From: Candidatus Nitrospinota bacterium M3_3B_026
GTDB lineage: Bacteria; Nitrospinota_A; UBA7883; JBPRGF01
Assembly: GCA_051418015.1 (NCBI GenBank)
Contig: JBPRGF010000002.1
Coordinates: 313-64,312, forward strand
Length of the DNA stretch: 64,000 nt
Direction: 5' to 3'
The notes below the pieces were generated by a model that did no database searches, was not told where the DNA came from, and saw nothing but the letters and a program-made list of their open reading frames with translations. The translations under genes were made by a program, and so were the position numbers. This document shows, piece after piece, positions 43,888-60,558 of this stretch (within the stretch, counting starts at the first letter, position 1; every line of letters starts with the position of its first letter).

Positions 43888-43934
43888 AAAAAAGGCGACA
43901 CCCGGCGCCCCTGTGGGGCGCGCCGGATATCGCC
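43888..43934 (-). terminator. Rho-independent terminator after the DUF1640 gene
   Basis: Minus-strand RNA 'ggcgauauccggcgcgcccc aca ggggcgccgggugucgcc uuuuuu'. Confidence 0.7.
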
Positions 43935-43960
43935 TTGTCCTTCCTCCGGCCGGGCCGGAG

Positions 43961-44868: not shown

Positions 44869-45074
44869 GCCGGAACATGGAGCCGCTGGACACCTATGAA
44901 ATCGAGCTTTTCAACTTTATCTCCCCTCACCTCGAGGCAAAGCTCTATCGCCTCTTTTACTCGCTCCATGAGAACGTCCAGCGATTTCGCCTGGGTATGA
45001 CAACCAGGCAAGGCGGGCACAGAGGCCACATAATACCCCTCCTCGTCCCGCTCGATGATGACGTCGTATTCCAT
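44865..45074 (-). CDS. hicB: HicB-family antitoxin (N-terminal HicB fold only)
   Basis: 'MEYDVIIERDEEGYYVASVPALPGCHTQAKSLDVLMERVKEAIELCLE'. The ATG at 45074 is preceded by GGAGAAGG. Confidence 0.85.
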   Translation of the reverse strand: MEYDVIIERDEEGYYVASVPALPGCHTQAKSLDVLMERVKEAIELCLEVRGDKVEKLDFIGVQRLHVPA

Positions 45075-45414
45075 GTTATTACCTTCTCCAAGCGGCCCTT
45101 TCACTGACTCCATTAAAATTATATCACTAGATCATGACAGAACATATTCGAAACGATTCGAGCCGCTTACCACAAATCAGCGACAGGCACGAAAAGTCAA
45201 TTTACCCCCTTCTCAGAGCATCCAAAAGTCGTTTTACCCCCGCCTCACGGGAGACTAAAGTTAATTTGAATCCAATGAGCGGATTAAAAAAGCTCTGTCG
45301 TTCCTGCGTTTCATAGTGATCCAAATTCAGAACCTTTGGTTCGAAGATACCAAACAATCCACAGTCCCGGCTTATCGGAATCAAGCCCTTGAAAAATCGT
45401 CATTATTCCCAGCC

Positions 45415-45471
45415 GCTGAGGTCGCGGGTTCGATCCCCGTCAGCTTTACAATCCATTCAACGGGTTGCGCC
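45415..45471 (+). repeat. attR-type direct repeat (tRNA-Ala 3' fragment plus 20 nt)
   Basis: 'gctgaggtcgcgggttcgatccccgtcagctttacaatccattcaacgggttgcgcc'. There is no 5' half of a tRNA upstream. Confidence 0.8.
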
Positions 45472-45717: not shown

Positions 45718-46953
45718 ATGACATCAAAGTCATACGATTTCGTGGTGGCCGGGGCCGGGATAATCGGCCTCGCCACAGCCCGCGCGCTGAAGAGAAAATA
45801 CCCCGGCGCGAGCGTCCTTGTGCTCGAGAAAGAGCCGCGGCCGGGGCTTCACGCCAGCGGCCGTAACAGCGGCGTCCTTCACAGCGGGATTTATTACGCC
45901 CCCGGCACATTCAAGGCGAGGCTGTGCGTCCGTGGCGCGCAAATGATGATGTCCTTCGCCGGGGAGCGCGGGATACCCTTCGAGAAAACAGGCAAGGTGA
46001 TCGTGGCCGCCAGGGAGGAGGACCTGCCGGTGATCGACAGGCTGATGGCCAACGCGAGGGCGAACAGCGTGCTCGCCGAAAAACTGTCCGCCGATGACAT
46101 AAGAAAGATCGAGCCTGCCACGGAGCCATACGAAACGGGCGTATATTGCCCGGATACAGCCGTCATCGACAGCGCGCGGGTAGTAAAAGAGCTTTCCGAA
46201 GTCATCCGGTCCTCCGGCGTCGAGATACTTTTCGGAGAGAGAGTCTTGAGCGCGGACTCGGGGCGGGGCGAGTTGACGGCCACCGGCGGCGAATTCTCAT
46301 TCGGCTGGTTCTATAACTGCGCCGGAGCCTACGCGGACATTATAGCGGCGCGGTTCGGCGCCGGCCGGGGATACGAGCTGACCCCTTTCAAGGGAATCTA
46401 CTTCAAGCTCGCGCCGGACAAGGCGCGGCTTGTCCGGGGGAATATATATCCCGTTCCCGACCTGGATTTCCCTTTCCTCGGGGTACATTTCACGCGGGCG
46501 ATCGGCGGCGATGTCTACGCGGGGCCGACGGCGATTCCGGCCCTGGGGCGGGAGAACTACGCGATGATAAAGGACATGAACCCCGCCGAGGCGTTTGGCG
46601 TGGCAAGGCGCATGCTGAGCGTTTACATCGCCGACAGGGACAATTTCCGGCGCCTGGTGAAAGGAGAGACAAGGAAATATTTCAAGGGCGGTTTTCTGGC
46701 GGCGGCTAGGCGCCTCATGCCGTCGATCACGGCCGAAGACCTGATCCGGTCGGATAAGGTGGGCATCAGGCCCCAGTTGGTCAACGTCCGGGAAAAGAGG
46801 CTTGAGCTCGATTACGTGGTGGAGCGCGCGGACCGGTCCACGCACGTGCTGAACGCCATTTCGCCAGCCTTCACCAGCTCCCTGGCTTTCGCCGAATTTA
46901 TCGTGGAGAATGATTATAATCTTCATTCAGAAGAAAGCGCCGAAGAAGCGTGA
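45718..46953 (+). CDS. lhgO: FAD-dependent L-2-hydroxyglutarate oxidase/dehydrogenase-like protein
   Basis: 'YDFVVAGAGIIGLATA' and 'HASGRNSGVLHSGIYY'; about 400 aa. The symbol reflects family resemblance only. Confidence 0.78.
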   Translation: MTSKSYDFVVAGAGIIGLATARALKRKYPGASVLVLEKEPRPGLHASGRNSGVLHSGIYYAPGTFKARLCVRGAQMMMSFAGERGIPFEKTGKVIVAAREEDLPVIDRLMANARANSVLAEKLSADDIRKIEPATEPYETGVYCPDTAVIDSARVVKELSEVIRSSGVEILFGERVLSADSGRGELTATGGEFSFGWFYNCAGAYADIIAARFGAGRGYELTPFKGIYFKLAPDKARLVRGNIYPVPDLDFPFLGVHFTRAIGGDVYAGPTAIPALGRENYAMIKDMNPAEAFGVARRMLSVYIADRDNFRRLVKGETRKYFKGGFLAAARRLMPSITAEDLIRSDKVGIRPQLVNVREKRLELDYVVERADRSTHVLNAISPAFTSSLAFAEFIVENDYNLHSEESAEEA

Positions 46954-47107
46954 GGGAGGCCCGCGGGCGCATCCAGAACATCGCGCGGATGGTCATAACC
47001 TGCCGTCGCGTATAGAATCATGGAGAGATGATTATGGCTGTCAGTAAAGAATCGCCATGCGATCCGCTGGAAAGCCCCGGCGGGCGCGAAGGCCGGGGAT
47101 GCCCGCG

Positions 47108-48109
47108 ATGAGCCGCGCGCGGACGCTCGCTGTCGCGGGAGCGGGATACTGGGGCAGGAACATCATAAGGAACCTTGTGGAGCTTGGCGCTCTCAGGTCC
47201 ATCGTCGAGAACCATTCCGGAGCCCAGGAGGAGGCCGCCCGGCGTAACCCCGATATCGACATGAAGGGATCGCTGTCCGAGGCTCTGGCAGACCCGGGCG
47301 TGGAGGGGGTGGTGGTCGTCACCCCCGCGGCGACCCACGCCGCACTTGTGCGCGAATCCCTGATGGCGGGCAAACACGTGTTCGTGGAAAAACCGCTCTG
47401 CCTCGACCCCGAAGAGGGCCGCCGCCTGGTGGACCTCGCCCGGGAGAAACGCCGGATACTGATGGTGGGGCACCTGCTCCATTACCATCCCGCGGTGGTC
47501 GCCCTCAAGAGCATGATCGCCGGCGGCGAGCTGGGGCCGTTGCAGTACATATATTCCAACCGGCTCAACCTCGGCAAAATAAGGACAGAGGAAAACATCC
47601 TCTGGTCCTTCGCCCCGCACGACATTTCGGTGCTTCTGGCGCTGCTGGGGGAGGCGCCGACGGCCGTCTCCTGCCACGCGTCCCATATCCTGAGCAAGGA
47701 CGTCGCCGACGTCACCGTGAGCGCTTTCACATTCGCTTCGGGGATACGGGCGCACATTTTCGTAAGCTGGCTGCATCCCTTCAAAGAACAGAAGCTGGTG
47801 GTGGTCGGCGAAAAAAAGATGGCTGTCTTCGACGACCGGGAACGGGAGAACAAGCTGGTGGTATATCCCCACGTCATAAAATGGGATGGGGATGTTCCGG
47901 TCCCGGACCGGAGGCAGGCCGAGCCGGTGGCGCTCAATGGCGTGGAGCCGCTCCGCGCGGAGATGGAAGCGTTCCTTGAGGCGATCCGCACAGGCGTCCC
48001 TCCCATCACCGACGGCGAGGAGGGGCTCCGGGTGCTGGCGACGCTGGCAACCTGCCAGCTTTCAATGGCCCGTGACGGGGCGCCGGTCTCATGGACGATG
48101 CCTGGCTAG
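47108..48109 (+). CDS. Gfo/Idh/MocA-family sugar-nucleotide oxidoreductase (WbpB/WlbA-like)
   Basis: 'LAVAGAGYWGRNIIRNL' Rossmann fold, 'VFVEKPLCL'. The Met at 47108 was chosen. Confidence 0.85.
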   Translation: MSRARTLAVAGAGYWGRNIIRNLVELGALRSIVENHSGAQEEAARRNPDIDMKGSLSEALADPGVEGVVVVTPAATHAALVRESLMAGKHVFVEKPLCLDPEEGRRLVDLAREKRRILMVGHLLHYHPAVVALKSMIAGGELGPLQYIYSNRLNLGKIRTEENILWSFAPHDISVLLALLGEAPTAVSCHASHILSKDVADVTVSAFTFASGIRAHIFVSWLHPFKEQKLVVVGEKKMAVFDDRERENKLVVYPHVIKWDGDVPVPDRRQAEPVALNGVEPLRAEMEAFLEAIRTGVPPITDGEEGLRVLATLATCQLSMARDGAPVSWTMPG

Positions 48110-48127
48110 ATCGGGAGACCGGCGGAG

Positions 48128-48700
48128 ATGATTCACGAAACGGCGATAATAGATGAGGGAGTGACGATCGGCGAGGGCACGAGGATATGGCACTTTTCCC
48201 ATGTGTTGGGGGGTAGCGTCATCGGCGAGCGCTGTAATATAGGGCAAAATGTCGTTATCGGCCCGCGCGTCACCATCGGCGACGGCTGCAAGATACAGAA
48301 CAACGTGTCGGTATACGAGGGAGTCACGCTGGAGGAGGATGTGTTCTGCGGCCCCTCCATGGTCTTCACCAACGTCATCAACCCGCGGGCCCACATAGTC
48401 CGGAAAGACCAGTATCTGCCCACCGTGGCGCGAAAAGGCGCAACCATCGGCGCGAACGCCACCATACTGTGCGGCGTCACGCTCGGGCGCTACTGCCTTG
48501 TCGGCGCGGGCGCGGTTGTGACAAAGGATGTGCCGGACTACGGGCTGATGGTGGGCGCTCCTGCCCGAAGGCGGGGATGGGTCTGCGCATGCGGCGTCTC
48601 GCTGACCCTGGACGGCGGCCGCGCCGAATGCTCTGAATGCGGCGGCGTCTACCGGCTTGTAAACGATCTCCTTCAACCAGCCATGGCGGACCAGGGGTGA
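48128..48700 (+). CDS. Left-handed beta-helix N-acetyltransferase (WbpD/WlbB-like)
   Basis: Hexapeptide repeats: 'IDEGVTIGEGTRIWHFSHV', 'IGQNVVIGPRVTIGDGCKIQNNVSVY', 'ATIGANATILCGVTLG'. Confidence 0.85.
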   Translation: MIHETAIIDEGVTIGEGTRIWHFSHVLGGSVIGERCNIGQNVVIGPRVTIGDGCKIQNNVSVYEGVTLEEDVFCGPSMVFTNVINPRAHIVRKDQYLPTVARKGATIGANATILCGVTLGRYCLVGAGAVVTKDVPDYGLMVGAPARRRGWVCACGVSLTLDGGRAECSECGGVYRLVNDLLQPAMADQG

Positions 48701-49998
48701 TCGCTTCTCCATCGAAAAGCGGCGCCGGGACGCCCATCCGGTTCCATATCGTCTCCTACCACTACGCCGACCCGGATTCCCCCGCCTGGCCGCGCGTCGA
48801 TTTCCTGGCCGCGGATCTGGCCGGCCGCGGCCATTCCGTGACCATATGGACGCGCCCGTTTGACGGGGACAGGACCGGCGGCGGGATCCAGGCGCGTGGC
48901 GTCGCCGACCCGTTGCGGCCATCCCGGGTGAAGGCGAGCGGCGCGGCGGCGCCATCCTCCTCCGCCCCGTGGAAAACGCGAATGCGCGGCATCGCCCGAA
49001 AATGGATACGCGCCGCGACATTTCCAGACCCCCAGTCTTTCTGGGCCAGGCGCGTCGCCCGCAGGGTCGCGGCGGAGAAGGAGCGTCCAGCCATGGCAGT
49101 GACGTTCGCCGCGCCGGAGAGCGCCGGGCTCGTCGGCGAAGCCTTGCGGCGCAGGGGCGGAAAGTGGTGGTTTGACCTGGCGGACGGATGGACGTTTCAA
49201 GGGTTGCGATACGAGGCCCTCGCCAGCCCGTCCCGCAAGGCCCGGGAAGCGGCTCTGGAAAAACGCTGGATCGCGTCCGCGGACGGCGTTTCCACCGTCA
49301 ACGCGGCTCTCCGGGACTACTTCAACAGCCTTCGTCCATCACCGGACGTCCACGTCTTCCCCAACGTCATTCCGCGGGAGATGGACCTCGGCGGCGCCTC
49401 CGCCGTCTGCATGGGCGGCGATTTTCTCACCGCCCTCTACTTCGGCAGACTCAGAAAGAGTGACGCCGCCCGATCACTCGCTCCGTTGCTCAACCAGCTC
49501 GCGGCGGACCCTGCGCAGGCCTCCCGCGTCCGGCTCCTGTTCGTGGGCGATTTCGACAAGGATGACCTGCGTGAGATCGAGCTTGCGGGGACCTTGTGCG
49601 GCGGGGTCGAGACAATACCGCCGATTCCGCGAGGGCGCCTGCCCGAATTGATCAGGGAAAAACAGGCCGGCGCCATGCTGGTGATAAACAGCCCCGGCTT
49701 GAAGGGCAGCACCAGCAAACTGCTTGACGCAGTCGGGCTGGGGATGCCTGTATGGTTGTTCGGCGACGATGACTCCGAAGCGGCTAAAATAACAAGGGAG
49801 GGGAGAATGGGAGTGGTGGTCCGCAACGACGCGGCGCCGATAGGCCTGGCCGAAACGGAGTCCACCCTGCGCCGGGCGGCGGCGGAAGGTTTCGGCGGGC
49901 GCGTCCGCTCGTTGTGGAGCGGCCCGGCGCGGGCGGCGGAGCTTGGCGACCTGCTGGAGGCCGCCGCCGTGAGAGATACAATCGGAGACGGCGGATGA
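48697..49998 (+). CDS. Hypothetical protein, possibly a GT-B glycosyltransferase
   Basis: The GTG at 48697 overlaps the upstream stop (GTGA). The C-terminal half 'LLFVGDFD...STSKLLDAVGLGMPVWLF' resembles GT-B C-domains. Weak call. Confidence 0.45.
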   Translation: MIASPSKSGAGTPIRFHIVSYHYADPDSPAWPRVDFLAADLAGRGHSVTIWTRPFDGDRTGGGIQARGVADPLRPSRVKASGAAAPSSSAPWKTRMRGIARKWIRAATFPDPQSFWARRVARRVAAEKERPAMAVTFAAPESAGLVGEALRRRGGKWWFDLADGWTFQGLRYEALASPSRKAREAALEKRWIASADGVSTVNAALRDYFNSLRPSPDVHVFPNVIPREMDLGGASAVCMGGDFLTALYFGRLRKSDAARSLAPLLNQLAADPAQASRVRLLFVGDFDKDDLREIELAGTLCGGVETIPPIPRGRLPELIREKQAGAMLVINSPGLKGSTSKLLDAVGLGMPVWLFGDDDSEAAKITREGRMGVVVRNDAAPIGLAETESTLRRAAAEGFGGRVRSLWSGPARAAELGDLLEAAAVRDTIGDGG

Positions 49999-51062
49999 AA
50001 CTGGCTCACGTGGTTGGGGCGCGGCCCCAGTTCATGCAAGCGGCGCCGCTGCGGCGTGAGCTGGAGGCGCGGGGCCATCGGGAAATCCTGATCCACACAG
50101 GCCAGCATTATGACTATGAGATGAGCCGGGTGTTTTTCGAAGAGCTGGGCATCCCGGCTCCGGACGTGAACCTGGAAGTGGGCTCCGCGGGCCACGGCGC
50201 CATGACGGGGAGGATCATCGAAGCGGTGGAACGCGCTCTCCTGGAAACACGCCCGGACGTGGTTATAGTGGACGGCGACACCAATTCCACGCTGGGGGGC
50301 GCTCTGGCCGCCGCGAAACTGCCCCTGCCCCTTGTCCACGTTGAATCGGGACTGAGAAGCGGCGACCGGCGCATGCCCGAGGAAGTGAACCGGATCGTTA
50401 CCGATCATGTGAGCGGCCTGCTGCTGGCGCCAACGGCCACGGCCATAGAGAACCTCGAGCGGGAAGGGCTCTCGGACCGGGCGACGCTGACGGGTGACCT
50501 GATGTGCGACTGCTACATCTCCTTCCGGGAAAAGGCCCGCCGCGCGGTGGTGGGCGAGCTTGGGCTCGGGGAGGGAGCTTACGCGCTGATAACGCTTCAC
50601 CGGGCCGAGAACACAAACGATCCGGAGCGCTTCACCGGCTTCATGAAAGGACTGGCGGCCCTGCCACTGCCGTCGATTTTTCCCGTCCATCCCCGCGCCC
50701 GGGCCATGGTCGACCTGTACCGGCGCAAGGGCGGCCCCATGGGCCAGATCAGGCTCACCGGGCCCAGGAGCTACCTCGAAATGATAGCCCTGGAGGAAGC
50801 GGCGGAGGTGGTGTTCACGGACTCCGGAGGGGTGCAGCGGGAAGCGTACCACGCAGGCGCGCCGTCCGTTGTGCTTCGTGATAACACCGAATGGCGCGAG
50901 CAGGTGGAGGCCGGCTGGACATATCTGGCCATGCCCAGCGAGGAATCCATATTGAGCGCCTACGAAAAAAGCCGCCGCCGCCCGGAAGAGCGCCCCGACA
51001 TTTACGGCGGCGGCGAAGCGGCAAAACGGATGGTCGACGCCATCGAGGCCCGCTTCGGTTGA
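49995..51062 (+). CDS. wecB: UDP-N-acetylglucosamine 2-epimerase (non-hydrolysing)
   Basis: 'VVGARPQFMQ', 'IHTGQHYDYEMS', 'GDTNSTLGGALAA', 'HVESGLRS'. ATGA overlap with the upstream gene. Confidence 0.92.
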   Translation: MKLAHVVGARPQFMQAAPLRRELEARGHREILIHTGQHYDYEMSRVFFEELGIPAPDVNLEVGSAGHGAMTGRIIEAVERALLETRPDVVIVDGDTNSTLGGALAAAKLPLPLVHVESGLRSGDRRMPEEVNRIVTDHVSGLLLAPTATAIENLEREGLSDRATLTGDLMCDCYISFREKARRAVVGELGLGEGAYALITLHRAENTNDPERFTGFMKGLAALPLPSIFPVHPRARAMVDLYRRKGGPMGQIRLTGPRSYLEMIALEEAAEVVFTDSGGVQREAYHAGAPSVVLRDNTEWREQVEAGWTYLAMPSEESILSAYEKSRRRPEERPDIYGGGEAAKRMVDAIEARFG

Positions 51063-52564: not shown

Positions 52565-54433
52565 ATGTGCGGTATATTCGGCGTCATCGATCTTGCCGGA
52601 CGCCAGGGCGGCGAGCAGGCCAGAACGGTCGAGACAGGGGTCGGCCTGCTTCATCACCGCGGGCCGGACTCTAATGGGGTGGCGTGGGCCGGGCCGGTCT
52701 GCTTTGGCCACACTCGTCTTTCCATCATCGACCTGGACGGCGGAGCGCAGCCCATGGCCGACACAGAGGGCGCCGGGCTTCTCACTTACAACGGCGAGGT
52801 CTATAACTTCCTGGAACTGCGCGATCAGCTGGCCCGGGAGGGACGCCGTTTCACGACACGCTCCGATTCCGAAGTGGTTCTGGCCGCGTACCTTGCGTGG
52901 GGCGCCCAGGCGGTGGAGCGTTTCCGCGGGATGTTCGCCTTCGCGGCTATCGACCATCGCAGGAAAAAGGCCATGATCGCCCGCGACAGGGTCGGCAAGA
53001 AACCTCTTTTTTACACGGTGGCGGGGAGCCGCCTCTGGTTCTCGAGCGAATTGGAGCCGCTCTACCGCGCCGTCGGCCCGTTCCCGCTCGATGAGGAGGG
53101 GCTTGACGACTACCTTGCGTGGCAATATATCCCTGCGCCGAAGACCATCTATAAAGGCGTGCGTTGCCTGCCCCCCGCCTGCCTGCTCGATGTCGACCTG
53201 GAGACCGGCGAAATAAAGGAGCGGCGATACTGGACGCTGACGTTCAGCGAGGATCGCTCCATGTCGGAGAGGGACTGGGAGGAAGAGATAGACCGGAACA
53301 TAAGGGATGCGGTCGCGGCGCGGCTGGTGAGCGATGTTCCATACGGCGTGTTCCTGAGCGGCGGGGTCGACTCCAGCATCGTGACGTGGCACATGGCCGA
53401 TATCCTGAAAAGCCCCGTCCGCTCTTTCTCCATAGGCTTCGAGGAGGCGCGTTACGATGAGATGGAACACGCCCGGGAAGTGGCGCGGCTGTGCGGCGCC
53501 AGGCATCACGCCGAAACGGTCCGGGCGGACTCCATGGGAATATTGCCGAGACTGGTCCGCCATTACGGTCAGCCCTTCGCGGATTCGTCCGCGATTCCGA
53601 CATGGTATGTCTCGGCCATGGCGGCCCGCCATGTAAAGATGGCGCTTTCCGGCGACGGGGGGGACGAGTCGTTCGCCGGCTACAACACCTACGAGGCGAT
53701 CATGCGTCTCGTCTCCGGCGATCCGCCGCCCGGCGCTCGCGGGGCGCTGCGGCTGGCGTTGCTCAAACTGCGCGGATGGCTGCGGCGGGGCGAGATCATG
53801 GAAAGAGCTTATGAGGGCCATTGCGGAGTGTACCGCCACTTTTCCCCCGAGGAGCGCCGATCGTTGCTGAGACCGCGGTTCCGCGGTATGGTAAGGGAAA
53901 TCCAGCCCGACCGGCGCCGGTGGTTTGACGCCGGCAGCGTCCCGCTGTTAACGCGGCTGCAGAGGCTTGATATAATGACATACTTACCATACGACATTCT
54001 GACGAAGGTCGACATCGCCTCCATGGCGCATTCGCTGGAAGTGCGGGCTCCATTGCTCGACCACCACCTGCTGGAGACGGTGGCCCGGATGCCGGTGGAG
54101 CTGAAGTTGAAAAAAATAGAAACAAATGAGGGGACGCTTTACGGAAAGAAGCATATGCTCCGGCAGGTGGCCAGGCGGCGGTTCGACTCCCGGATCATCG
54201 ATCGCCCCAAACAGGGGTTCGGCGTTCCCCTCGGGCCATGGTTCGCCGGCCCTTTGCGCGAGGAGGTTCGCCGGCGCCTTGTCAATTCCGCTCCGATGGC
54301 GCGTTATTTCGACACCGGAGCGCTCGAGTCGCTGGTGAACCGCCACACGGAGGCCGCCGACCTTTCGTCCAGGCTCTGGAACCTTCTTTTTCTGGGCGAA
54401 TGGATGGAGACACATCCAGAATCGCTGGCATGA
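52565..54433 (+). CDS. Asparagine synthase-family glutamine amidotransferase (AsnB/WbpS-like), copy 1
   Basis: N-terminal 'MCGIFG' (Cys2 nucleophile), 'HRGPD', PP-loop 'FLSGGVDSS'. Confidence 0.9.
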   Translation: MCGIFGVIDLAGRQGGEQARTVETGVGLLHHRGPDSNGVAWAGPVCFGHTRLSIIDLDGGAQPMADTEGAGLLTYNGEVYNFLELRDQLAREGRRFTTRSDSEVVLAAYLAWGAQAVERFRGMFAFAAIDHRRKKAMIARDRVGKKPLFYTVAGSRLWFSSELEPLYRAVGPFPLDEEGLDDYLAWQYIPAPKTIYKGVRCLPPACLLDVDLETGEIKERRYWTLTFSEDRSMSERDWEEEIDRNIRDAVAARLVSDVPYGVFLSGGVDSSIVTWHMADILKSPVRSFSIGFEEARYDEMEHAREVARLCGARHHAETVRADSMGILPRLVRHYGQPFADSSAIPTWYVSAMAARHVKMALSGDGGDESFAGYNTYEAIMRLVSGDPPPGARGALRLALLKLRGWLRRGEIMERAYEGHCGVYRHFSPEERRSLLRPRFRGMVREIQPDRRRWFDAGSVPLLTRLQRLDIMTYLPYDILTKVDIASMAHSLEVRAPLLDHHLLETVARMPVELKLKKIETNEGTLYGKKHMLRQVARRRFDSRIIDRPKQGFGVPLGPWFAGPLREEVRRRLVNSAPMARYFDTGALESLVNRHTEAADLSSRLWNLLFLGEWMETHPESLA

Positions 54434-54496: not shown

Positions 54497-55489
54497 ATGC
54501 CGTCACTAAAAGACAAAAAAATTCTCGTCATAGGGGGGGCCGGATTTATCGGCTCGCACGTTGTTGAAGAGCTGCTCAAGGAGCCGGTGGGACAGGTGAC
54601 AGTGTTCGACAACTTCAGCCGCGGCGCGGAGGAAAACCTCGCCGACGCGGCCCCTAACAGCCGATTCCGGGTGTTCGACCTGGGGGGCGACATTCTGCAG
54701 GCTGACATCCTGGACGAGGCCATCAAGGGACAGGACATGGTGGTACATCTGGCCGCGTTGTGGCTGCTGCATTGCCATGAGTACCCCCAATCGGCGTTCG
54801 AGGTGAACATCCGCGGCTTTTTCAACGTGCTGGAGTCATGCCGCCGTCACAACATAGAAAAGCTGGTCTTTTCAAGCTCCGCCTCGGTGTACGGCGACGC
54901 CGTGGAGGAGCCGATGACCGAGGACCATCCCTATAACAATTGGACGTTTTACGGCGCCAGCAAGATAGCCGGCGAACACATGATGAAGGCGTACCACAGG
55001 CGCTACGGCCTGAGCGGTGTGGGGCTCCGCTACATGAACGTCTACGGCCCCCGCCAGGACTACCGCGGAGCCTACATCGCCGTTATGATGAAGATACTCG
55101 ACAACATCGACCAGGGCGCCAGCCCCACGGTCTATGGCGACGGCTCCCAGGCTTATGACTTCATCCATGTCCGGGACGCCGCGCGGGCCAACGTCCTCGC
55201 CCTGAAGGCGGATGTCCCACACGGTTTTTATAATGTCGGCCGGGGGATCAAAACCTCGATCAAGGAGCTTGCGGAGCTTTTGATCTCGCTGACGGGGTCC
55301 GGCCTGCCGGTGGAATACAAGGACGCCGGGCCGACCTTTGTGAAAAACCGCGTGGGGGACCCGACGCGGGCTTCCGAGGACCTGGGCTTCAAATGGACCA
55401 TTGGCCTGGAGGAGGGGATGCGCTCGCTCATAGAGTGGCGCAAAAGCCACATGGAGGAGGTGGAGAAGCGCCGTCGCGCCGTTCGCTGA
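54497..55489 (+). CDS. NAD-dependent sugar-nucleotide epimerase/dehydratase (extended SDR)
   Basis: 'VIGGAGFIGSHVV' and 'YGASK' (YxxxK). Confidence 0.9.
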   Translation: MPSLKDKKILVIGGAGFIGSHVVEELLKEPVGQVTVFDNFSRGAEENLADAAPNSRFRVFDLGGDILQADILDEAIKGQDMVVHLAALWLLHCHEYPQSAFEVNIRGFFNVLESCRRHNIEKLVFSSSASVYGDAVEEPMTEDHPYNNWTFYGASKIAGEHMMKAYHRRYGLSGVGLRYMNVYGPRQDYRGAYIAVMMKILDNIDQGASPTVYGDGSQAYDFIHVRDAARANVLALKADVPHGFYNVGRGIKTSIKELAELLISLTGSGLPVEYKDAGPTFVKNRVGDPTRASEDLGFKWTIGLEEGMRSLIEWRKSHMEEVEKRRRAVR

Positions 55490-55501: not shown

Positions 55502-56386
55502 CTATTCCAGCAGGGTTTTCACCCCCTGGGCGAAGGTGATCGATGGGCCGCCGAGCAGCGCGCGCATTCGGCTGATATCCGCCACCATTCGGGGGGCGGG
55601 GCCGCTTTCGTCCACGGAAAAAACAGGAGGCCTGCCCGCGCGTTCGCCGATGATCTCACACATTCGGCGCAGGGTGATGGCCTCGGGGCCCGCCACGTTG
55701 ATGACGTTCACGCCGTCCCCCTCGAGGCGCAGGCTGCTTTCGACGGCGTTGACGGCGTCGTCTACATGGACCGGGTTTATCACCAGCCCGCCGGGCCCTT
55801 GCAGGGTGATTGGCCGGCCCTCTCTCACCGACGCCGCCAGCCGCGGCGCGAGCATATCCCGCCGCTGGCCCGGCCCGTAAATGAAAAAGAAGCGCAGGAT
55901 AACCACCTTCATGATCCCGGCGTATCCCGCCGCCAATATCTCGGCCGCCAGCTTGGAGCGCGCGTAATAGCCGTTGATTTTCTCCACGTCAAGCCGGTTT
56001 TCCTCCCGCAACGGCTCCGGGCTCGCCGGATAAACTCCCCCCGTGGAGGCGAGTATGAGCCGGCTGACGCCAGCCCGCCTGCCGAATTCCAGCAAGCGCT
56101 GGGTGGAAGCGACGTTCACAGCGTAGATATCGTCGGCCTGCTCGGGAAACCGGCGGAATGCAAGAGACTGGGCCAGGTGAACGATGGCGTCGGCGTTGGC
56201 GGGTAACAGGCCGGCAAAACCGGGATCCGCGAGGTCGGCGATGGTGGGGACCACTCCCTCGGGCAGGTGGCCTGGCTCTTTTCTGTAGATAGGCGCAAGC
56301 CGGCGGCGGCCAGTCAATCGGCGCACAAGCTGAGCCCCGACGAGCCCCGAGGCCCCGGTGATGATGATCGGTTTTTCTTCGCTCAC
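55502..56386 (-). CDS. NAD-dependent epimerase/dehydratase-family SDR
   Basis: 'ITGASGLVGAQLV' and 'YARSK'. Confidence 0.85.
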   Translation of the reverse strand: MSEEKPIIITGASGLVGAQLVRRLTGRRRLAPIYRKEPGHLPEGVVPTIADLADPGFAGLLPANADAIVHLAQSLAFRRFPEQADDIYAVNVASTQRLLEFGRRAGVSRLILASTGGVYPASPEPLREENRLDVEKINGYYARSKLAAEILAAGYAGIMKVVILRFFFIYGPGQRRDMLAPRLAASVREGRPITLQGPGGLVINPVHVDDAVNAVESSLRLEGDGVNVINVAGPEAITLRRMCEIIGERAGRPPVFSVDESGPAPRMVADISRMRALLGGPSITFAQGVKTLLE

Positions 56387-56504: not shown

Positions 56505-58505
56505 ATGTGTGGCATTTGCGGCCTTGTTTCGCTGGGGGGCGGGCCAATCGACCCCGCGCGAGCCAAACCCATGCTTGACACGCTGACCCACCGGGGGCGG
56601 GACGACGCGGGATACGCCTTTTTCCGTTTGGGGGAGTATAAACAGACCGAGGGCAGCTACTGGATCAGCATGGTGGAGCCCGAGTTCCATCACCTCAACG
56701 AGCGCCTTGCCGTCTACGGGGGATCTCTCGCCAGCGAGGAGTTCGCGAGGACTCCGTTTTCGCTTGCGCTGGGGCATCGCCGCCTCTCGATCATCGACCT
56801 GAGCCACAAGGGCCACCAGCCCATGCACACCTCGGACCGGCGTTACTGGATCATCCTGAACGGGGAGATATACAACTATGTCGAGCTGAGGGAGGCGCTG
56901 GAGAGCCGCGGGCACATCTTCCGCTCCAACACCGACACCGAGACGATACTCCACCTGTGGGAGGAGAAGGGCGCCGCCTGCCTAGCCGAGCTGGACGGCA
57001 TGTTCGCCTTCGCGCTCTACGACCGGGTTGAGAACACGCTGACCCTGGCCCGCGACCGGTTCGGCGTTAAGCCGCTCTACTACGCCGAGGCGGGACCTTA
57101 TTTTCTGTTCGCCTCCGAGATCAAGGCCATCCTCGCGTCCGGCCTGGCCCCTCGCGGAATAGACCCCGCCGCTCTGGGCGAGTACTTCACCTTCCAGAAC
57201 ATAGTGAGCGACCACACACTCTTCGAGGGCGTGCGGATGCTTCCACCTGGTGAAAAGATCACAGTAAAACCCGGTTCCGGCGGCGGCGCGCGCAAGGAGC
57301 GCTATATAGACCCACTCGGCGAGGCTGACGAAAACACGCCGGATCCGGCGGCCGTCGCCGCCACCCTGGCCGACTCGTTCCAGGGCGCGGTCAGGCGGCA
57401 GCTACGCAGCGACGTGGAGATCGGGGCGTATCTCTCCGGTGGCATGGACAGCGGCTCCATCGTGGCCGTGTGCGGCAAGACCATGCCGCGGCTGCTTACA
57501 TTTACCGCCGGGTTCGACCTGACAAACGTGGACGGGATCGAGCAGGGTTTCGATGAGCGGCGGCTGGCCGAGAGGCTCTCGTACCTGTACCAGACCGAGC
57601 ACTACGACGTGGTTCTGCACGCGGGCGACATGCCGGCGGTCATGGACAAGCTGACCTGGCACGTAGACGACCCCCGCGTCGGCATGTGCCACCAGAACTG
57701 GTACGCCGCCAAGCTGGCCAGCAGGTTTGTGAAGGTCTGCCTCTCCGGCGCCGGCGGCGACGAAATGTTCGGCGGATACCCGTGGCGCTATCGGGGCATA
57801 GTCAGGTTGATGAACGAGGGAAAGATGCCGTATGAAGACGCCGTGTTCCGCTTCTGGCACAGGCTCCTGAACCCCGAGGAGCTGCCGCGTCTTTTTCACA
57901 CGGATTATCGTGAGAGCCTGACCGCCGCCCGCGAGCGGCTCGGCAGTGTCATACAATCATTGCCTGCGGGAAATCCCAGGCTGGGAGAGCTGGACGGCGT
58001 TATCCATCGCACGCTGGCGTTCGAGTTCAAGACATTCCTGCACGGTCTTCTTGTCATCGAGGACAGAGTCAGCATGGCTCATAATATGGAGGTCCGCGTT
58101 CCTTTTCTGGATAACGCCCTGGCGGCCCTGGCGTGGCGGCTTCCCCCATCCCTTAAGATGGATATGGCCCAGATCGGCGGCGGTAAAGGCGCGGCCGAAG
58201 AGGCGGGAGGGAAGAAGATTCTCCGCCGGGCGATGACCTCGCTGCTGCCTAAGGAGTACGTAAATCAGCGGAAGCAGGGGTTTTCGCCCCCCGATGGGAG
58301 CTGGTATCGCGGGCCCTCGGTCGATTATCTCAAGGAGATACTTTTCGATCAGCGGACGCTCTCCCGTCCATGGTTCGACCAGCGGTTCGTAGAGCAAAAG
58401 CTTTCGGAACATTTCACCGGCATGAGCAACCATCGGCTTCTGATCTGGTCCTTGTTGTCCTTCGAGCTGCTGCAACGGCACTTTATTGACGGGGGGCATA
58501 AATGA
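56505..58505 (+). CDS. Asparagine synthase-family glutamine amidotransferase, copy 2
   Basis: 'MCGICG', 'HRGRDD', PP-loop 'YLSGGMDSGS'; 666 aa. Confidence 0.9.
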   Translation: MCGICGLVSLGGGPIDPARAKPMLDTLTHRGRDDAGYAFFRLGEYKQTEGSYWISMVEPEFHHLNERLAVYGGSLASEEFARTPFSLALGHRRLSIIDLSHKGHQPMHTSDRRYWIILNGEIYNYVELREALESRGHIFRSNTDTETILHLWEEKGAACLAELDGMFAFALYDRVENTLTLARDRFGVKPLYYAEAGPYFLFASEIKAILASGLAPRGIDPAALGEYFTFQNIVSDHTLFEGVRMLPPGEKITVKPGSGGGARKERYIDPLGEADENTPDPAAVAATLADSFQGAVRRQLRSDVEIGAYLSGGMDSGSIVAVCGKTMPRLLTFTAGFDLTNVDGIEQGFDERRLAERLSYLYQTEHYDVVLHAGDMPAVMDKLTWHVDDPRVGMCHQNWYAAKLASRFVKVCLSGAGGDEMFGGYPWRYRGIVRLMNEGKMPYEDAVFRFWHRLLNPEELPRLFHTDYRESLTAARERLGSVIQSLPAGNPRLGELDGVIHRTLAFEFKTFLHGLLVIEDRVSMAHNMEVRVPFLDNALAALAWRLPPSLKMDMAQIGGGKGAAEEAGGKKILRRAMTSLLPKEYVNQRKQGFSPPDGSWYRGPSVDYLKEILFDQRTLSRPWFDQRFVEQKLSEHFTGMSNHRLLIWSLLSFELLQRHFIDGGHK

Positions 58506-59338
58506 GGGCGTTACTCGACCCTGGAGCCCATTGGCGGGCCACCAGGGAGATCATAGCTCTTTTGACCCACCATCGGCAACTGACCTGGGAGATGGCCAAG
58601 CGGGAGTTGCAGGACCGCTACGCCGGTCAGGTGATGGGCCTGATGTGGGCGGTGATCCATCCGGTGGCGATCATTCTCGTGTACCTTTTCCTGTTCATAA
58701 TCGTGTTCAAGGTCCGGTTTCCCCCGATGGAGGGGGTTACCATGGACTACGCCTCGTACATCCTGGCAGGCCTGATTCCGTGGTTCTACTTCCAGGAATC
58801 CATGATAAAAGGGTGCACGGCCATATCCAGCAACGCCCCCCTGGTAAAGCAGGTGGTGTTTCCCATAGAGGTGCTGCCGGTGAAGGGGGTGCTGGTATCG
58901 CTTCTAAGCCAGGCCGTGGCCACCGCCATCCTCCTTTGCTATATGCTTCTGCGCCACGGCGGCGTTCCATGGACCATCGTGTTTTTCCCGGCGGCGCTCC
59001 TGCTGGAGGGTCTCCTGATGACCGGTTTGAGCTATATCCTTTCGGCCGTCGGCGCCTACATCCGCGACGTGAAAGACATCGTGCAGGTGCTGCTCCTGAT
59101 GAGCATGTACCTTACCCCCACGTTCTACCTTCCCGCCATGGTACCCGCAACGTTCAAGTACGTGATCTACTTGAATCCCTTCAGTTACATGATCTGGGTG
59201 TTCCAGGATATATTTTTCTTCGGATGGTTTCAGCACCCGTGGGCGTGGGTGATATTCACGGGCGAGGCGCTGCTGGTTTTCTACGGAGGCTACCGAGTCT
59301 TCCGCAAGGCTAAAATGTTTTTCGGGAACGTGCTGTGA
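58502..59338 (+). CDS. wzm: ABC-2-type polysaccharide export permease
   Basis: ATGA overlap with the upstream gene; six hydrophobic segments; N-terminus 'ELQDRYAGQVMGLMWAVIHP' is typical of Wzm/TagG. Confidence 0.88.
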   Translation: MRALLDPGAHWRATREIIALLTHHRQLTWEMAKRELQDRYAGQVMGLMWAVIHPVAIILVYLFLFIIVFKVRFPPMEGVTMDYASYILAGLIPWFYFQESMIKGCTAISSNAPLVKQVVFPIEVLPVKGVLVSLLSQAVATAILLCYMLLRHGGVPWTIVFFPAALLLEGLLMTGLSYILSAVGAYIRDVKDIVQVLLLMSMYLTPTFYLPAMVPATFKYVIYLNPFSYMIWVFQDIFFFGWFQHPWAWVIFTGEALLVFYGGYRVFRKAKMFFGNVL

Positions 59339-60558
59339 GCGATAATGAAACCCCGGCCATCCGGGTCAGCGGCCTGTCGAAGATGTTCAGGGTCTACCAG
59401 CGGCCCGTCGACCTGGTAAAAGAGCTGATAACGGGCCGCCCCTATCACAGCGAGTTCTGGGCGCTCAAGGACGTTTCGTTCACCGTGGAGCGCGGCCAGG
59501 TGGTGGGCGTCATCGGCAGGAACGGCGCCGGCAAGAGCACTCTTCTGAAGATCATCGCCGGGACCCTGGACGCGACCGGCGGCGAGGTGAAGGCCAATGG
59601 CCGCGTATCGGCGCTTTTGGAGCTGGGGACGGGGTTCAACGTCGAACACACCGGCCATGACAACATCCTCATGGGCGGGATGTGCCTGGGGATGAGCAAG
59701 GAGGAGGTCGAACGCAAGTATGACTGGATCGTCGACTTCTCCGAGCTGAAGGATTTCATTCACCAGCCGGTTAAGACCTACTCGTCGGGGATGCTCTCCC
59801 GGCTGGCCTTCTCCGTCGCCATTTGCGTGGAGCCGGAGATATTCATCGTGGACGAGGCGCTGGCCACGGGGGATATCCGCTTCCAGGACAAATGCCTGCG
59901 CCAGATCAAAAGAATCGTCCAGAGCGGCGCGACGGTCCTTTTCGTGTCGCACAGCCTGCAGACGATTTACGACCTTTGCGACAGGACTATTCTCCTTGCT
60001 CATGGAGAAATCGCGAAAGATGGGGATCCCCGCGCTGTCGGAGACGCGTATGAGTTGATGCTTGCCCGGAGCGATGACGAGGACTATGCTCAGGCTCCGC
60101 TGGAAACAATAGTCAATCAAAAGGTCCACACCGGAAACAGCGCATATATAGAAAGTGTATGCGTCAAGAACGACAATGGTGTCCGTGTTGCGACGTTGAC
60201 CTACAGGGAGTGGTACACTGTCGAGGTTGTGGTTCACTGCAACGAGGATATGGAATCACTCGGCGTTGGATTCATGATCCAACTTCCATCCGGCATGAAA
60301 ATATACAACAAAAACACCAACAGTAATAATTTGCTTTTCACGTGCGAAAAAGGAGAAAAGCTCACGGTGAAATTCAGGTTTCAATGTCTGGTTATGGATG
60401 GTCCGTATTTCATTGGCGGAGGGCTTGGAAAGATTCACCGGGACGGCTCGTTCACGTTGCTGCATATGATGCGAAGCGCCATCACGGTCACGGTGACAGG
60501 CGGAAGCACAAAATTTCGGGGTATCGTTGATTTGCAGGCTGATATCTTATGCGAATGA
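59335..60558 (+). CDS. wzt: Polysaccharide export ABC ATPase with C-terminal carbohydrate-binding-type domain
   Basis: Walker A 'GRNGAGKST', signature 'YSSGMLSRLAF', Walker B 'IFIVDEAL'. There is an extra beta-rich C-terminal domain of about 150 aa. GTGA overlap with wzm. Confidence 0.9.
   Translation: MSDNETPAIRVSGLSKMFRVYQRPVDLVKELITGRPYHSEFWALKDVSFTVERGQVVGVIGRNGAGKSTLLKIIAGTLDATGGEVKANGRVSALLELGTGFNVEHTGHDNILMGGMCLGMSKEEVERKYDWIVDFSELKDFIHQPVKTYSSGMLSRLAFSVAICVEPEIFIVDEALATGDIRFQDKCLRQIKRIVQSGATVLFVSHSLQTIYDLCDRTILLAHGEIAKDGDPRAVGDAYELMLARSDDEDYAQAPLETIVNQKVHTGNSAYIESVCVKNDNGVRVATLTYREWYTVEVVVHCNEDMESLGVGFMIQLPSGMKIYNKNTNSNNLLFTCEKGEKLTVKFRFQCLVMDGPYFIGGGLGKIHRDGSFTLLHMMRSAITVTVTGGSTKFRGIVDLQADILCE

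What the first reader, a model, noticed from the sequence alone, without database searches (positions are those of the whole stretch)
45718..48109. 2-hydroxyglutarate oxidase-like gene placed at the head of a WbpB/WbpD-type sugar-nucleotide pathway
From memory of biochemical work on P. aeruginosa WbpB and Bordetella WlbA, the UDP-GlcNAcA 3-oxidase regenerates its bound NAD+ by reducing 2-oxoglutarate to 2-hydroxyglutarate. Here an LhgO-like FAD enzyme sits immediately upstream of the WbpB-like oxidoreductase, the WbpD-like acetyltransferase and a WecB/WbpI-like epimerase. A dedicated oxidase would recycle the 2-HG by-product back to 2-oxoglutarate and close the cofactor loop. I am not aware of such a link being described. 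The aminotransferase (WbpE-like) and UDP-GlcNAc dehydrogenase (WbpA-like) steps are not in this window.
Basis: inference. Interest (0 to 1): 0.55.

Follow-up and report, generated by a model that had tools for sequence, protein, structure and literature searches.

The report
L-2-hydroxyglutarate oxidase heading a surface-sugar locus

Summary
The genes are there as described: an LhgO-like FAD enzyme (45718-46953), then a GFO/IDH/MocA oxidoreductase, a WlbB/WbpD-type N-acetyltransferase, a GT4 and a WecB-type 2-epimerase.

The flavoenzyme passes NCBI's LhgO cut-off and keeps all five L-2-hydroxyglutarate-binding residues.

Its relatives are often wired into sugar-nucleotide operons:
- 55 of 81 loci carry glycan markers within 5 kb.
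- 37 have an extended SDR within 400 nt.
- 20 of these SDRs are orthologues of Cj1427, the 2-oxoglutarate-dependent dehydrogenase reported to make L-2-HG.

So "a by-product recycler for a sugar dehydrogenase" is well supported as a general idea. The proposed partner is not:
- The adjacent oxidoreductase belongs to neither the WbpB nor the WlbA sequence class.
- P. aeruginosa WbpB makes D-2-HG, and its recycling by D2HGDH was published in 2021.
- None of 80 WlbB/GFO loci carries LhgO.
- Genome-wide, LhgO is no more frequent in genomes that have WlbB but lack an orthologue of the SDR at 54497-55489 (3/34) than in genomes without WlbB (39/356).

That SDR is the element shared by all ten such loci. 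Its orthologues lie directly after LhgO in seven of them. One locus encodes a WbpE::LhgO fusion.

This scan noted the same LhgO-in-glycan-operon pattern at least eight times on other genomes. All activities remain untested.

The parts
45718..46953 (+). LhgO/L2HGDH-family FAD enzyme (411 aa). It is the only family member in the genome.
   Evidence: NF008726 scores 351.7 bits against a cut-off of 299. PF01266 E 6e-58. 8w75 E 4e-65. Substrate residues S51, H55, Y244, H257 and R351 are invariant in alignment A1 (mapped from the alignment and PMC10726252). Single copy in G000.
47057..48109 (+). GFO/IDH/MocA oxidoreductase, a probable UDP-GlcNAc(A) 3-dehydrogenase of the 3c1a/7bvj-like class. It is not in the WbpB or WlbA class.
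   Evidence: Pfam hits. PDB ranking. Nearest homologues (55-62% identity) are mostly ~530-aa fusions with a WlbB-type acetyltransferase domain. Only 25% identity over 76 aa to a WbpB-class enzyme.
48128..48700 (+). WlbB/WbpD-type 3-N-acetyltransferase
   Evidence: 3mqg E 2.9e-67 over residues 2-179.
48637..49998 (+). GT4 glycosyltransferase. The true start is probably downstream of the listed ORF start.
   Evidence: PF13579 and PF13439.
49914..51062 (+). Non-hydrolysing UDP-HexNAc 2-epimerase (WecB/WbpI-like)
   Evidence: PF02350 E 2e-90. TIGR00236 scores 267 bits against a cut-off of 210.
52565..54433 (+). AsnB-family glutamine amidotransferase 1
   Evidence: PF00733, PF13537 and TIGR01536.
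54497..55489 (+). Extended SDR ('SDR330') that resembles a 4-epimerase. It is the best candidate producer of L-2-HG in this locus.
   Evidence: PDB 6dnt 1e-56, then WbgU and WbpP. S130/Y152/K156 are present and there is no dehydratase D-E pair. Orthologues (54-63% identity) lie directly after LhgO in L047, L052, L055, L056, L070, L072 and L187.
55502..56386 (-). Second extended SDR ('SDR294')
   Evidence: PF01370. Orthologues at 40-41% identity occupy the same module in L070 and L187.
56505..58505 (+). AsnB-family amidotransferase 2
   Evidence: 44% identical to the AsnB of the L187 module.
58502..60558 (+). Wzm/Wzt ABC exporter pair. It marks the locus as an ABC-transporter-dependent glycan locus.
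   Evidence: PF01061; PF00005 plus PF14524.
45427..45444 (+). Core of the copy of the tRNA-Ala 3' end (right boundary of a 4.7-kb integrative islet). LhgO starts about 270 nt beyond it, so it lies outside the islet.
   Evidence: tRNA-Ala at 40683-40758. The repeat is found at 40734-40751 and 45427-45444, with 0 matches expected by chance. Integrases at 40764-43192.

Best explanation
The 411-aa protein is a true L-2-hydroxyglutarate-oxidising flavoenzyme of the LhgO/L2HGDH family. It belongs to a part of that family that is often carried inside nucleotide-sugar gene clusters.

Its likely job is to re-oxidise L-2-HG to 2-oxoglutarate. The L-2-HG would come from a sugar-nucleotide dehydrogenase that holds its NAD(H) tightly and uses 2-oxoglutarate as oxidant, as Cj1427 does. 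The electrons would go to quinone or O2. This would let a net sugar oxidation, and the amino-sugar synthesis that follows it, proceed without 2-HG building up.

In this locus the most probable L-2-HG producer is the extended SDR at 54497-55489, not the adjacent GFO/IDH/MocA 3-dehydrogenase.

Shown: family membership, conserved substrate residues and gene-neighbourhood patterns.
Inferred: the substrate, that the SDR depends on 2-oxoglutarate, and the coupling itself.
For: Family membership
- NF008726 is over its cut-off.
- All five L2HGDH substrate-binding side chains are kept and are invariant in 36 relatives (PMC10726252).

Not a housekeeping pattern
- There is one copy in the genome.
- No CsiD/GlaH gene was found in a genome that is 97% complete.
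- A homologue is found in only 5 of 40 related genomes. In three of those five it lies beside heptose genes; the other two sit on short contigs with no marker.

Neighbourhoods of 81 LhgO-centred loci
- 55 carry glycan markers within 5 kb, and 37 have an SDR within 400 nt.
- 20 of those SDRs are 72-96% identical to (or, in one case, identical with) the L029 SDR, which matches PDB 6vo6 at E 4e-113. I take 6vo6 to be Cj1427 from memory.
- Cj1427 reduces 2-oxoglutarate to L-2-HG (PMC10680097).

The SDR330 type
- SDR330 orthologues lie directly after LhgO in seven loci from different phyla.
- They are present in all ten UDP-HexNAc-type loci that carry LhgO. The GFO enzyme is absent from L052 and L056 and not seen on the short L047 contig, and it belongs to three different classes elsewhere.
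- In L052, L055, L056 and L072 the SDR330 orthologue is followed by a DegT aminotransferase. That implies it delivers a keto-sugar.
- It lacks the dehydratase acid/base pair.

Phyletic test
- LhgO is over its cut-off in 7/10 SDR330-positive genomes, 3/34 WlbB-positive SDR330-negative genomes and 39/356 other genomes.

Fusions
- DegT::LhgO and GT2::LhgO fusion proteins exist.
Against: - In this window LhgO is 7.5 kb from the SDR and directly beside the GFO gene.
- SDR330 is only 28-29% identical to Cj1427 orthologues. Its closest solved relatives are 4-epimerases, which need no external oxidant.
- No DegT follows SDR330 here.
- Nine of ten SDR330 modules sampled without regard to LhgO have no LhgO within 10 kb.
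- Of the seven LhgO-positive genomes in the phyletic test, two pair LhgO with another SDR type, one with GlaH, and two show no glycan context.
- Related genomes are not independent, so the Fisher p-values overstate the case.
- No enzyme here has been assayed.
Confidence: 0.45

Rival explanations
1. The adjacent GFO/IDH/MocA 3-dehydrogenase regenerates its NAD+ by reducing 2-oxoglutarate, and LhgO oxidises that 2-HG back.
For: - The two genes are adjacent on the same strand, 104-154 nt apart, with no terminator-like site between them.
- The sister LhgO in L013 lies in a locus with the same GFO class.
- LhgO sits in operons with a WbpB-class enzyme (L072, L187) or a WlbA-class enzyme (L070, L055).
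- In L187 LhgO is fused to the WbpE-position aminotransferase.
- WbpB-class enzymes do use 2-oxoglutarate as oxidant (PMC10622841, PMC8651671).
Against: - The window's GFO is in neither the WbpB nor the WlbA class. Nothing shows that it binds NAD(H) tightly.
- The one WbpB tested for chirality makes D-2-HG, which D2HGDH recycles.
- WlbA-class enzymes are reported to be sequential.
- None of 80 WlbB-centred loci, 59 with a GFO domain and 34 apparently fused to WlbB, carries LhgO.
- LhgO is at background frequency in WlbB-positive, SDR330-negative genomes.
- Every LhgO locus that has a GFO also has an SDR330 orthologue.
Confidence: 0.2
2. LhgO is a general metabolite-repair enzyme that clears L-2-HG made by side reactions of malate or lactate dehydrogenases. 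Its position at the edge of the glycan locus, next to a tRNA gene and an integrative islet, is fortuitous.
For: - It is the only LhgO in the genome.
- It is the first gene of the locus, just outside the islet boundary.
- A promoter-like site separates it from the next gene.
- A 22-member branch of the family (Desulfovibrionaceae, Nitrospirota and others) mostly shows none of the glycan markers tested. In Maridesulfovibrio the gene lies between a helicase-nuclease pair and an NMO-family gene.
Against: - The gene is found in only 5 of 40 relatives, which does not fit a housekeeping function.
- The nearest relatives on the tree, including the sister L013, lie in glycan loci.
- Every other component of this locus recurs together with LhgO in L070, L072 and L187.
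Confidence: 0.2
3. The flavoenzyme does not act on free L-2-HG. Instead it oxidises a sugar-linked or other 2-hydroxy acid, as a tailoring step of the glycan.
For: - It lies consistently inside glycan operons.
- A fusion to a GT2 glycosyltransferase exists.
- It scores in a lower band on the LhgO model (about 303-362 bits) than E. coli-like proteins (at least 478 bits).
- It is only 33% identical to E. coli LhgD.
Against: All five residues that bind the C1 carboxyl, C2 hydroxyl and C5 carboxyl of the substrate in L2HGDH are invariant, including the arginine for the distal carboxylate. No such tailoring chemistry is known for this family.
Confidence: 0.07

Closest known systems
E. coli LhgO/LhgD (YgaF) and eukaryotic L2HGDH (Drosophila structure 8w75)
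   Same: Same DAO-fold FAD enzyme family. It is over the NCBIfam equivalog cut-off, and the Ser/His/Tyr/His/Arg substrate-binding set is identical.
   Different: It is only 33% identical to E. coli LhgD and sits on a separate, distant branch. The genome has no GlaH/CsiD partner. The gene lies in a glycan locus instead of the glaH-lhgD-gabDTP operon.
D2HGDH (PA0317) coupled to WbpB and SerA in Pseudomonas aeruginosa (Nat Commun 2021, PMC8651671)
   Same: The logic is the same. A 2-oxoglutarate-reducing dehydrogenase of O-antigen sugar synthesis makes 2-HG, and a flavoenzyme returns it to 2-oxoglutarate. Loss of that flavoenzyme lowers LPS.
   Different: That case uses the D enantiomer, an unrelated FAD-linked oxidase family, and a dehydrogenase gene that the paper treats with a separate D-2-HG catabolism operon, not with the wbp genes. 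Here the enzyme is of the L-specific family and is built into the glycan locus.
[quoted passage not shown]
   Same: It is an extended SDR with tightly bound NADH that is re-oxidised by 2-oxoglutarate, giving L-2-HG (PMC10680097). Its orthologues are the commonest direct neighbours of this LhgO clade (20 of 81 loci).
   Different: This genome has no Cj1427 orthologue; the best match is 29% identical. The candidate here, SDR330, is a different subfamily that resembles 4-epimerases, and it lies in a UDP-HexNAc-type locus rather than a heptose locus.
WbpA/B/E/D/I (WlbA-D) pathway to UDP-ManNAc3NAcA
   Same: A WlbB-type acetyltransferase (3mqg, 3e-67), a WecB-type 2-epimerase and a GFO-fold dehydrogenase lie side by side. 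WbpE-like and WbpA-like genes lie elsewhere in the genome.
   Different: The dehydrogenase is a third sequence class, whose relatives are usually fused to the acetyltransferase. The pathway genes are dispersed, and the locus adds two AsnB amidotransferases, two SDRs and LhgO.

Membership tests
LhgO / L2HGDH (L-2-hydroxyglutarate oxidase or dehydrogenase) | Score over the curated equivalog cut-off of NCBIfam NF008726 | tested here: met
   351.7 bits against a cut-off of 299, covering residues 6-397 and model positions 1-389.
LhgO / L2HGDH (L-2-hydroxyglutarate oxidase or dehydrogenase) | DAO-type FAD-binding fold with a GxGxxG motif | tested here: met
   PF01266 E 6e-58. G12, G14 and G17 are invariant.
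LhgO / L2HGDH (L-2-hydroxyglutarate oxidase or dehydrogenase) | Substrate-binding residues Ser88, His92, Tyr289, His302 and Arg393 of Drosophila L2HGDH | tested here: met
   They map to S51, H55, Y244, H257 and R351 through the alignment. All five are invariant in 36 clade members. The residue list comes from PMC10726252.
LhgO / L2HGDH (L-2-hydroxyglutarate oxidase or dehydrogenase) | Stereospecific oxidation of L-2-HG to 2-oxoglutarate | not testable with these tools
   This needs an enzyme assay.
LhgO / L2HGDH (L-2-hydroxyglutarate oxidase or dehydrogenase) | Canonical bacterial context: glutarate hydroxylase GlaH/CsiD beside it or elsewhere in the genome | tested here: not met
   No PF08943 match in the genome, which is 97% complete. 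E. coli has glaH-lhgD-gabDTP. This is a context feature and does not define the enzyme.
WbpB / WlbA UDP-GlcNAcA 3-dehydrogenases (for the gene at 47057-48109) | GFO/IDH/MocA two-domain fold | tested here: met
   PF01408, PF22725 and PF02894.
WbpB / WlbA UDP-GlcNAcA 3-dehydrogenases (for the gene at 47057-48109) | Sequence membership of the WbpB class (3oa2, 3o9z) or the WlbA class (3q2k, 3q2i) | tested here: not met
   3q2k scores 2e-10 and 3q2i 3.5e-7. 3oa2 and 3o9z are not among the 60 best chains; the top hits are 3c1a and 7bvj. Identity to a WbpB-class protein is 25% over 76 aa. True members score 1e-110 to 1e-167.
WbpB / WlbA UDP-GlcNAcA 3-dehydrogenases (for the gene at 47057-48109) | Works together with a WbpD/WlbB-type 3-N-acetyltransferase | tested here: met
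   It is adjacent to a WlbB homologue. Most of its closest homologues are fused to one.
WbpB / WlbA UDP-GlcNAcA 3-dehydrogenases (for the gene at 47057-48109) | Tightly bound NAD(H) re-oxidised by 2-oxoglutarate (ping-pong mechanism, WbpB class) | not testable with these tools
   This needs purified protein. According to PMC10622841, only the WbpB class is reported to do this.
WlbB / WbpD N-acetyltransferases (48128-48700) | Left-handed beta-helix acetyltransferase closely similar to solved WlbB | tested here: met
   3mqg E 2.9e-67 over 178 residues.
Cj1427-type ping-pong C4-dehydrogenases (for the SDR at 54497-55489) | Extended SDR with a Ser/Thr-Tyr-Lys triad and without the 4,6-dehydratase Asp-Glu pair | tested here: met
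   S130, Y152 and K156 are conserved. The motif reads SSSASVYGD, with no D-E after the Ser.
Cj1427-type ping-pong C4-dehydrogenases (for the SDR at 54497-55489) | Orthology to Cj1427 (PDB 6vo6) | tested here: not met
   It is 28-29% identical to Cj1427 orthologues. Its best solved relatives are UDP-HexNAc 4-epimerases. It may still work like Cj1427, but it is not a member of that subfamily.
Cj1427-type ping-pong C4-dehydrogenases (for the SDR at 54497-55489) | 2-oxoglutarate-dependent turnover that yields L-2-HG | not testable with these tools
   This needs an assay with chiral analysis of 2-HG.

The most novel reading that the evidence does not exclude
Several unrelated subfamilies of extended SDRs, not only Cj1427, would be ping-pong dehydrogenases that oxidise nucleotide sugars at the expense of 2-oxoglutarate. 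These include the 4-epimerase-like SDR330 type found in 2,3-diacetamido-uronamide loci. A dedicated branch of LhgO would turn the resulting L-2-HG back into 2-oxoglutarate while passing the electrons to the respiratory chain. A 2-oxoglutarate/L-2-HG shuttle would then link surface-glycan amino-sugar synthesis to respiration, built into operons across many phyla and in at least one case fused to the aminotransferase.
Probability: 0.3. Interest if true: 0.65.

Novelty: new variant of a known kind. Interest (0 to 1): 0.5.

Why it matters
Net oxidation of a nucleotide sugar without 6-deoxygenation needs an external oxidant. Two enzyme types are known to use 2-oxoglutarate for this. How cells dispose of the 2-HG is described only for D-2-HG in Pseudomonas.

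A clustered L-specific recycler would have three uses:
- It would give a genomic marker for finding further 2-oxoglutarate-dependent sugar dehydrogenases. These are inactive as isolated and easily misannotated as epimerases.
- It would explain a recurrent 'out-of-place' annotation in glycan loci.
- It would suggest that L-2-HG, an inhibitor of 2-oxoglutarate-dependent enzymes, is a routine by-product of surface-glycan synthesis in many bacteria.

I found no paper in the searchable library that links LhgO to glycan operons.

Tried and rejected
- WbpB/WlbA membership of the adjacent oxidoreductase was rejected on sequence.
- A general LhgO-WbpB/WbpD association was rejected. None of 80 WlbB-centred metagenome loci (606 kb) carries LhgO; the best LhgO-model hit there has E 0.013.
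- I asked whether SDR330 modules always carry LhgO. They do not: 9 of 10 sampled have none within 10 kb.
- I looked for a Cj1427 orthologue in this genome and found none.
- I looked for LhgO fused to an SDR or a GFO enzyme. None was found among six long homologues. The informative fusions were to DegT and GT2. The tool warns that this search is weak evidence of absence.
- The related genomes were too few to be informative: LhgO in 5 of 40, SDR330 in 0 of 40, Cj1427-like in 2 of 40, one of them without LhgO.
- The primary papers on Cj1427, WlbA and WbpB (PMC7509852, PMC7500870, PMC3050068, PMC2694220, PMC4241754) are not held. That 6vo6 is Cj1427 rests on my memory and on the deposited molecule name. 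That WlbA is sequential rests on PMC10622841.
- A literature search on GnnA and 2-oxoglutarate gave nothing useful.
- The careful tree did not finish. The quick IQ-TREE result is used, and E. coli LhgD lies on a very long branch.
- No structure was predicted. Folds would not separate an epimerase from a ping-pong dehydrogenase.
Full report
**1. What is there**

Gene calling by third-position G+C and family scans give a + strand series that begins just after a 4.7-kb integrative islet at tRNA-Ala. The tRNA lies at 40683-40758, the integrases at 40764-43192, and a copy of the tRNA 3' end at 45427-45444.

| Coordinates | Gene |
|---|---|
| 45718-46953 | LhgO-like enzyme |
| 47057-48109 | GFO/IDH/MocA oxidoreductase |
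| 48128-48700 | hexapeptide acetyltransferase |
| 48637-49998 | GT4 |
| 49914-51062 | WecB-type 2-epimerase |
| 51091-52197 (- strand) | 368-aa ORF with no family hit |
| 52565-54433 | AsnB-type amidotransferase |
| 54497-55489 | extended SDR ('SDR330') |
| 55502-56386 (- strand) | second SDR ('SDR294') |
| 56505-58505 | second AsnB-type amidotransferase |
| 58502-60558 | Wzm/Wzt exporter |
| 60618-61430 | sulfotransferase |

**2. The flavoenzyme**

- It scores 351.7 bits on NCBIfam NF008726 (cut-off 299).
- It aligns end to end with Drosophila L2HGDH (8w75, E 4e-65).
- The structure paper names Ser88, His92, Tyr289, His302 and Arg393 as the side chains that hold 2-oxoglutarate. Mutating them abolishes or impairs activity (PMC10726252).
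- Through the alignment these map to S51, H55, Y244, H257 and R351. All five are invariant in an alignment of 36 relatives.
- The protein is 33% identical to E. coli LhgD.

I conclude that it very probably oxidises L-2-HG. This is an inference from conserved residues.

**3. The neighbours**

- The acetyltransferase is a close relative of Bordetella WlbB (3mqg, 3e-67).
- The oxidoreductase has the right fold, but its best solved relatives are 3c1a and 7bvj. WlbA 3q2k reaches only 2e-10, and WbpB 3oa2/3o9z are not among the 60 chains listed.
- True class members score far higher. The Legionella erythra enzyme matches 3q2k at 1e-167, and a Vibrio enzyme matches 3oa2 at 2e-110. The window's enzyme shares 25% identity over 76 residues with the Vibrio enzyme.
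- Its nearest homologues (55-62% identity) are mostly ~530-aa fusions of this dehydrogenase with a WlbB-type domain. So it surely works with the acetyltransferase, as a third class of 3-dehydrogenase.

**4. Literature**

- P. aeruginosa WbpB binds NADH tightly and reduces 2-oxoglutarate to D-2-HG. D2HGDH (PA0317) recycles it, and its loss lowers O-antigen (PMC8651671). A 2-HG recycling link for WbpB is therefore already described, but for the other enantiomer and another enzyme family.
- The WbpB class is ping-pong with 2-oxoglutarate, whereas B. pertussis and C. violaceum WlbA are sequential (PMC10622841).
- Cj1427, an extended SDR, is a ping-pong C4-dehydrogenase whose bound NADH is re-oxidised by 2-oxoglutarate, giving L-2-HG (PMC10680097).
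- Searches for LhgO or L-2-HG together with heptose or O-antigen found no paper that links them.

**5. LhgO-centred comparison**

A scan of species-representative genomes gave 80 loci with relatives of 40-57% identity. I annotated the flanks with home-made HMMs. Counting the window, there are 81 loci:

- 55 have a sugar-nucleotide marker within 5 kb.
- 25 have heptose genes (GmhA, GmhB or HldE).
- 37 have an extended SDR within 400 nt.
- 25 have none of the markers tested within 10 kb. These are mainly Desulfovibrionaceae and Nitrospirota. In Maridesulfovibrio the gene lies between a helicase-nuclease pair and an NMO-family gene.

Typing the adjacent SDRs:

| Type | Loci |
|---|---|
| Cj1427-like: the L029 SDR itself and 19 others 72-96% identical to it; it matches PDB 6vo6 at 4e-113 (6vo6 = Cj1427 from memory) | 20 |
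| SDR330 orthologues (54-63% identity) | 6 |
| A third type | 4 |
| Others | 7 |

A common arrangement is DegT (RfbH-like) - GmhA - Cj1427-like - LhgO - GmhB.

On a quick tree the window's protein is sister to L013 (support 88). L013 is another locus with the same GFO class, an SDR330 orthologue and AsnB. The pair is nested in a 38-member group that is almost entirely next to SDR or heptose genes.

Direct LhgO-to-GFO adjacency occurs only in the window.

**6. The UDP-HexNAc-type loci**

Ten loci carry LhgO with this gene set: the window, L013, L047, L052, L055, L056, L070, L072, L187 and, 22 kb apart on one contig, G133.

- Legionella erythra has UDP-sugar 6-dehydrogenase - WlbA - WlbB - WecB - LhgO - SDR330 - methyltransferase - AsnB - SDR294, with overlapping genes.
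- A Vibrio MAG has dehydrogenase - SDR - WbpB - WbpD - DegT - LhgO - SDR330 - DegT ... AsnB.
- L187 has WbpB - WbpD - a 772-aa DegT::LhgO fusion - SDR330 - methyltransferase - AsnB - SDR294.

The window holds the same components in a different order. So the association is not unique to this genome.

SDR330 is present in all ten loci and lies directly after LhgO in seven. The GFO enzyme is absent within 10 kb in L052 and L056 and is not seen on the short L047 contig. Where present it belongs to three different classes, one of them reported not to be ping-pong.

**7. Reverse tests**

- Eighty metagenomic loci centred on WlbB (56-69% identity, 606 kb in all, 38 of at least 7 kb, 59 with a GFO domain, 34 apparently fused) contain no LhgO.
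- In 400 genomes of the class of L. erythra, ten carry an SDR330 orthologue. All ten also have WlbB. The nine new ones mostly show GFO - WlbB - DegT - SDR330 - (DegT) - AsnB, and none has LhgO within 10 kb.

Genome-wide frequency of LhgO over its cut-off:

| Genome group | LhgO-positive |
|---|---|
| SDR330-positive | 7 of 10 |
| WlbB-positive, SDR330-negative | 3 of 34 |
| The rest | 39 of 356 |

Fisher p = 3e-4 and 2.5e-5; with the seed genome excluded, 9e-4 and 1.4e-4.

Caveats:
- Related genomes are not independent.
- There are only ten positives.
- Of the seven LhgO-positive genomes, three carry the E. coli-like type (one beside GlaH), two pair LhgO with yet another SDR type, one has AsnB neighbours on the same contig, and one is the seed.
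- The baseline count includes four unpublished genomes (G352, G185, G340, G083). They are only counted; no sequence from them is used.

**8. This genome**

- It has one LhgO, no CsiD/GlaH and no Cj1427 orthologue.
- It has one GlcD-like FAD-linked oxidase that could handle D-2-HG.
- It has four DegT genes elsewhere. One of them (C33) is 53% identical to the WbpE-position aminotransferase of the Vibrio locus.
- Among 40 relatives, LhgO is found in five and SDR330 in none. The locus looks acquired, and LhgO looks accessory.

**9. Reading**

The pattern that holds across phyla is 'glycan-clade LhgO next to an extended SDR'. For the commonest SDR partner the production of L-2-HG is published. The chemistry makes sense: oxidation of a sugar hydroxyl followed by transamination is a net oxidation. 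An enzyme with non-exchanging NAD needs an oxidant, and the aminotransferase supplies 2-oxoglutarate from glutamate.

In this locus I therefore take LhgO to be a recycler for the glycan pathway (about 0.65 in all). SDR330 is the more likely producer (0.45) and the adjacent GFO enzyme less likely (0.2). A fortuitous housekeeping role remains possible (0.2).

SDR330 lacks the dehydratase acid/base pair and is followed by an aminotransferase in four other loci. This suggests a C4-dehydrogenase. From memory, 2,3,4-triamino-2,3,4-trideoxy-galacturonamide caps on Bordetella O-antigens would need such a step. However, the closest solved relatives of SDR330 are true 4-epimerases, and here no aminotransferase follows it.

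**10. Earlier notes of this scan**

After forming this reading I found that the scan had recorded LhgO inside glycan operons at least eight times on other genomes, with the same proposed role. These are unchecked AI notes and I do not count them as evidence. My analysis reached the same conclusion independently and adds three things: the reverse tests, the comparison of GFO classes and the fusion protein.

Noticed in passing
L187:8001-10319 (protein P0242); L188:1332-3569 (protein P0244): Two natural fusion proteins. One is a 772-aa WbpE-position DegT aminotransferase fused to LhgO, inside a WbpB-WbpD-[fusion]-SDR330-MT-AsnB-SDR294 operon. The other is a 745-aa GT2 glycosyltransferase fused to LhgO. 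Each is a single database entry, so an assembly or frameshift artefact is not excluded.
   Followed up: partly
window 47057-48700; proteins P0123-P0240: The window's separate dehydrogenase and acetyltransferase genes correspond to a single ~530-aa bifunctional protein in most of the closest homologues (55-62% identity). In 34 of 80 WlbB-centred loci, GFO and WlbB hits fell in one ORF. This fused 3-dehydrogenase/N-acetyltransferase class appears unstudied.
   Followed up: partly
L016, L023, L028, L029, L032, L033, L035, L043 (about 6.5-12 kb in each): A conserved heptose module recurs in several lineages of Pseudomonadota: RfbH-like DegT (a probable C3-dehydratase) - GmhA - Cj1427 orthologue - LhgO - GmhB. 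It probably makes a 3-deoxy or amino heptose.
   Followed up: partly
L199-L206 (genomes G289, G133, G271, G252, G226, G248, G441): The module GFO - WlbB - DegT - SDR330 - (DegT) - AsnB is conserved in gene order in most of the nine SDR330-positive genomes sampled in the class of Legionella erythra. It may lead to a 2,3-diacetamido-4-amino uronamide (a guess from memory of Bordetella O-antigen caps).
   Followed up: no
L209:7925-10191; L210:6953-9208; also L044, L046, L074: LhgO is paired with at least five different extended-SDR subfamilies: Cj1427 type, SDR330 type, the L017 type, the L044/L046/L074 group, and the L209/L210 type. These are 25-33% identical to one another.
   Followed up: partly
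window 51091-52197 (- strand): A 368-aa ORF with coding-like G+C3 lies in the middle of the glycan locus. It has no Pfam or NCBIfam hit.
   Followed up: no
window 40683-45471: A compact integrative islet sits at tRNA-Ala(CGC), with two tyrosine recombinases. The core of the tRNA 3'-end copy is at 45427-45444. The glycan locus begins directly outside its right end.
   Followed up: partly
G000:C23:119879-121300 (L012:838-2259): This is the genome's only FAD-oxidase_C family protein. It is GlcD-like (511 bits, below the GlcD cut-off of 568), with a weaker match to D-2-HG dehydrogenase YdiJ. It is a candidate for D-2-HG oxidation if the GFO enzyme makes that enantiomer.
   Followed up: no
G018:C9:41522-42448: A relative in the same class (98% complete) has a Cj1427 orthologue (56% identity), but no LhgO was found with the window protein as query. 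So Cj1427-type enzymes do not always come with LhgO.
   Followed up: no
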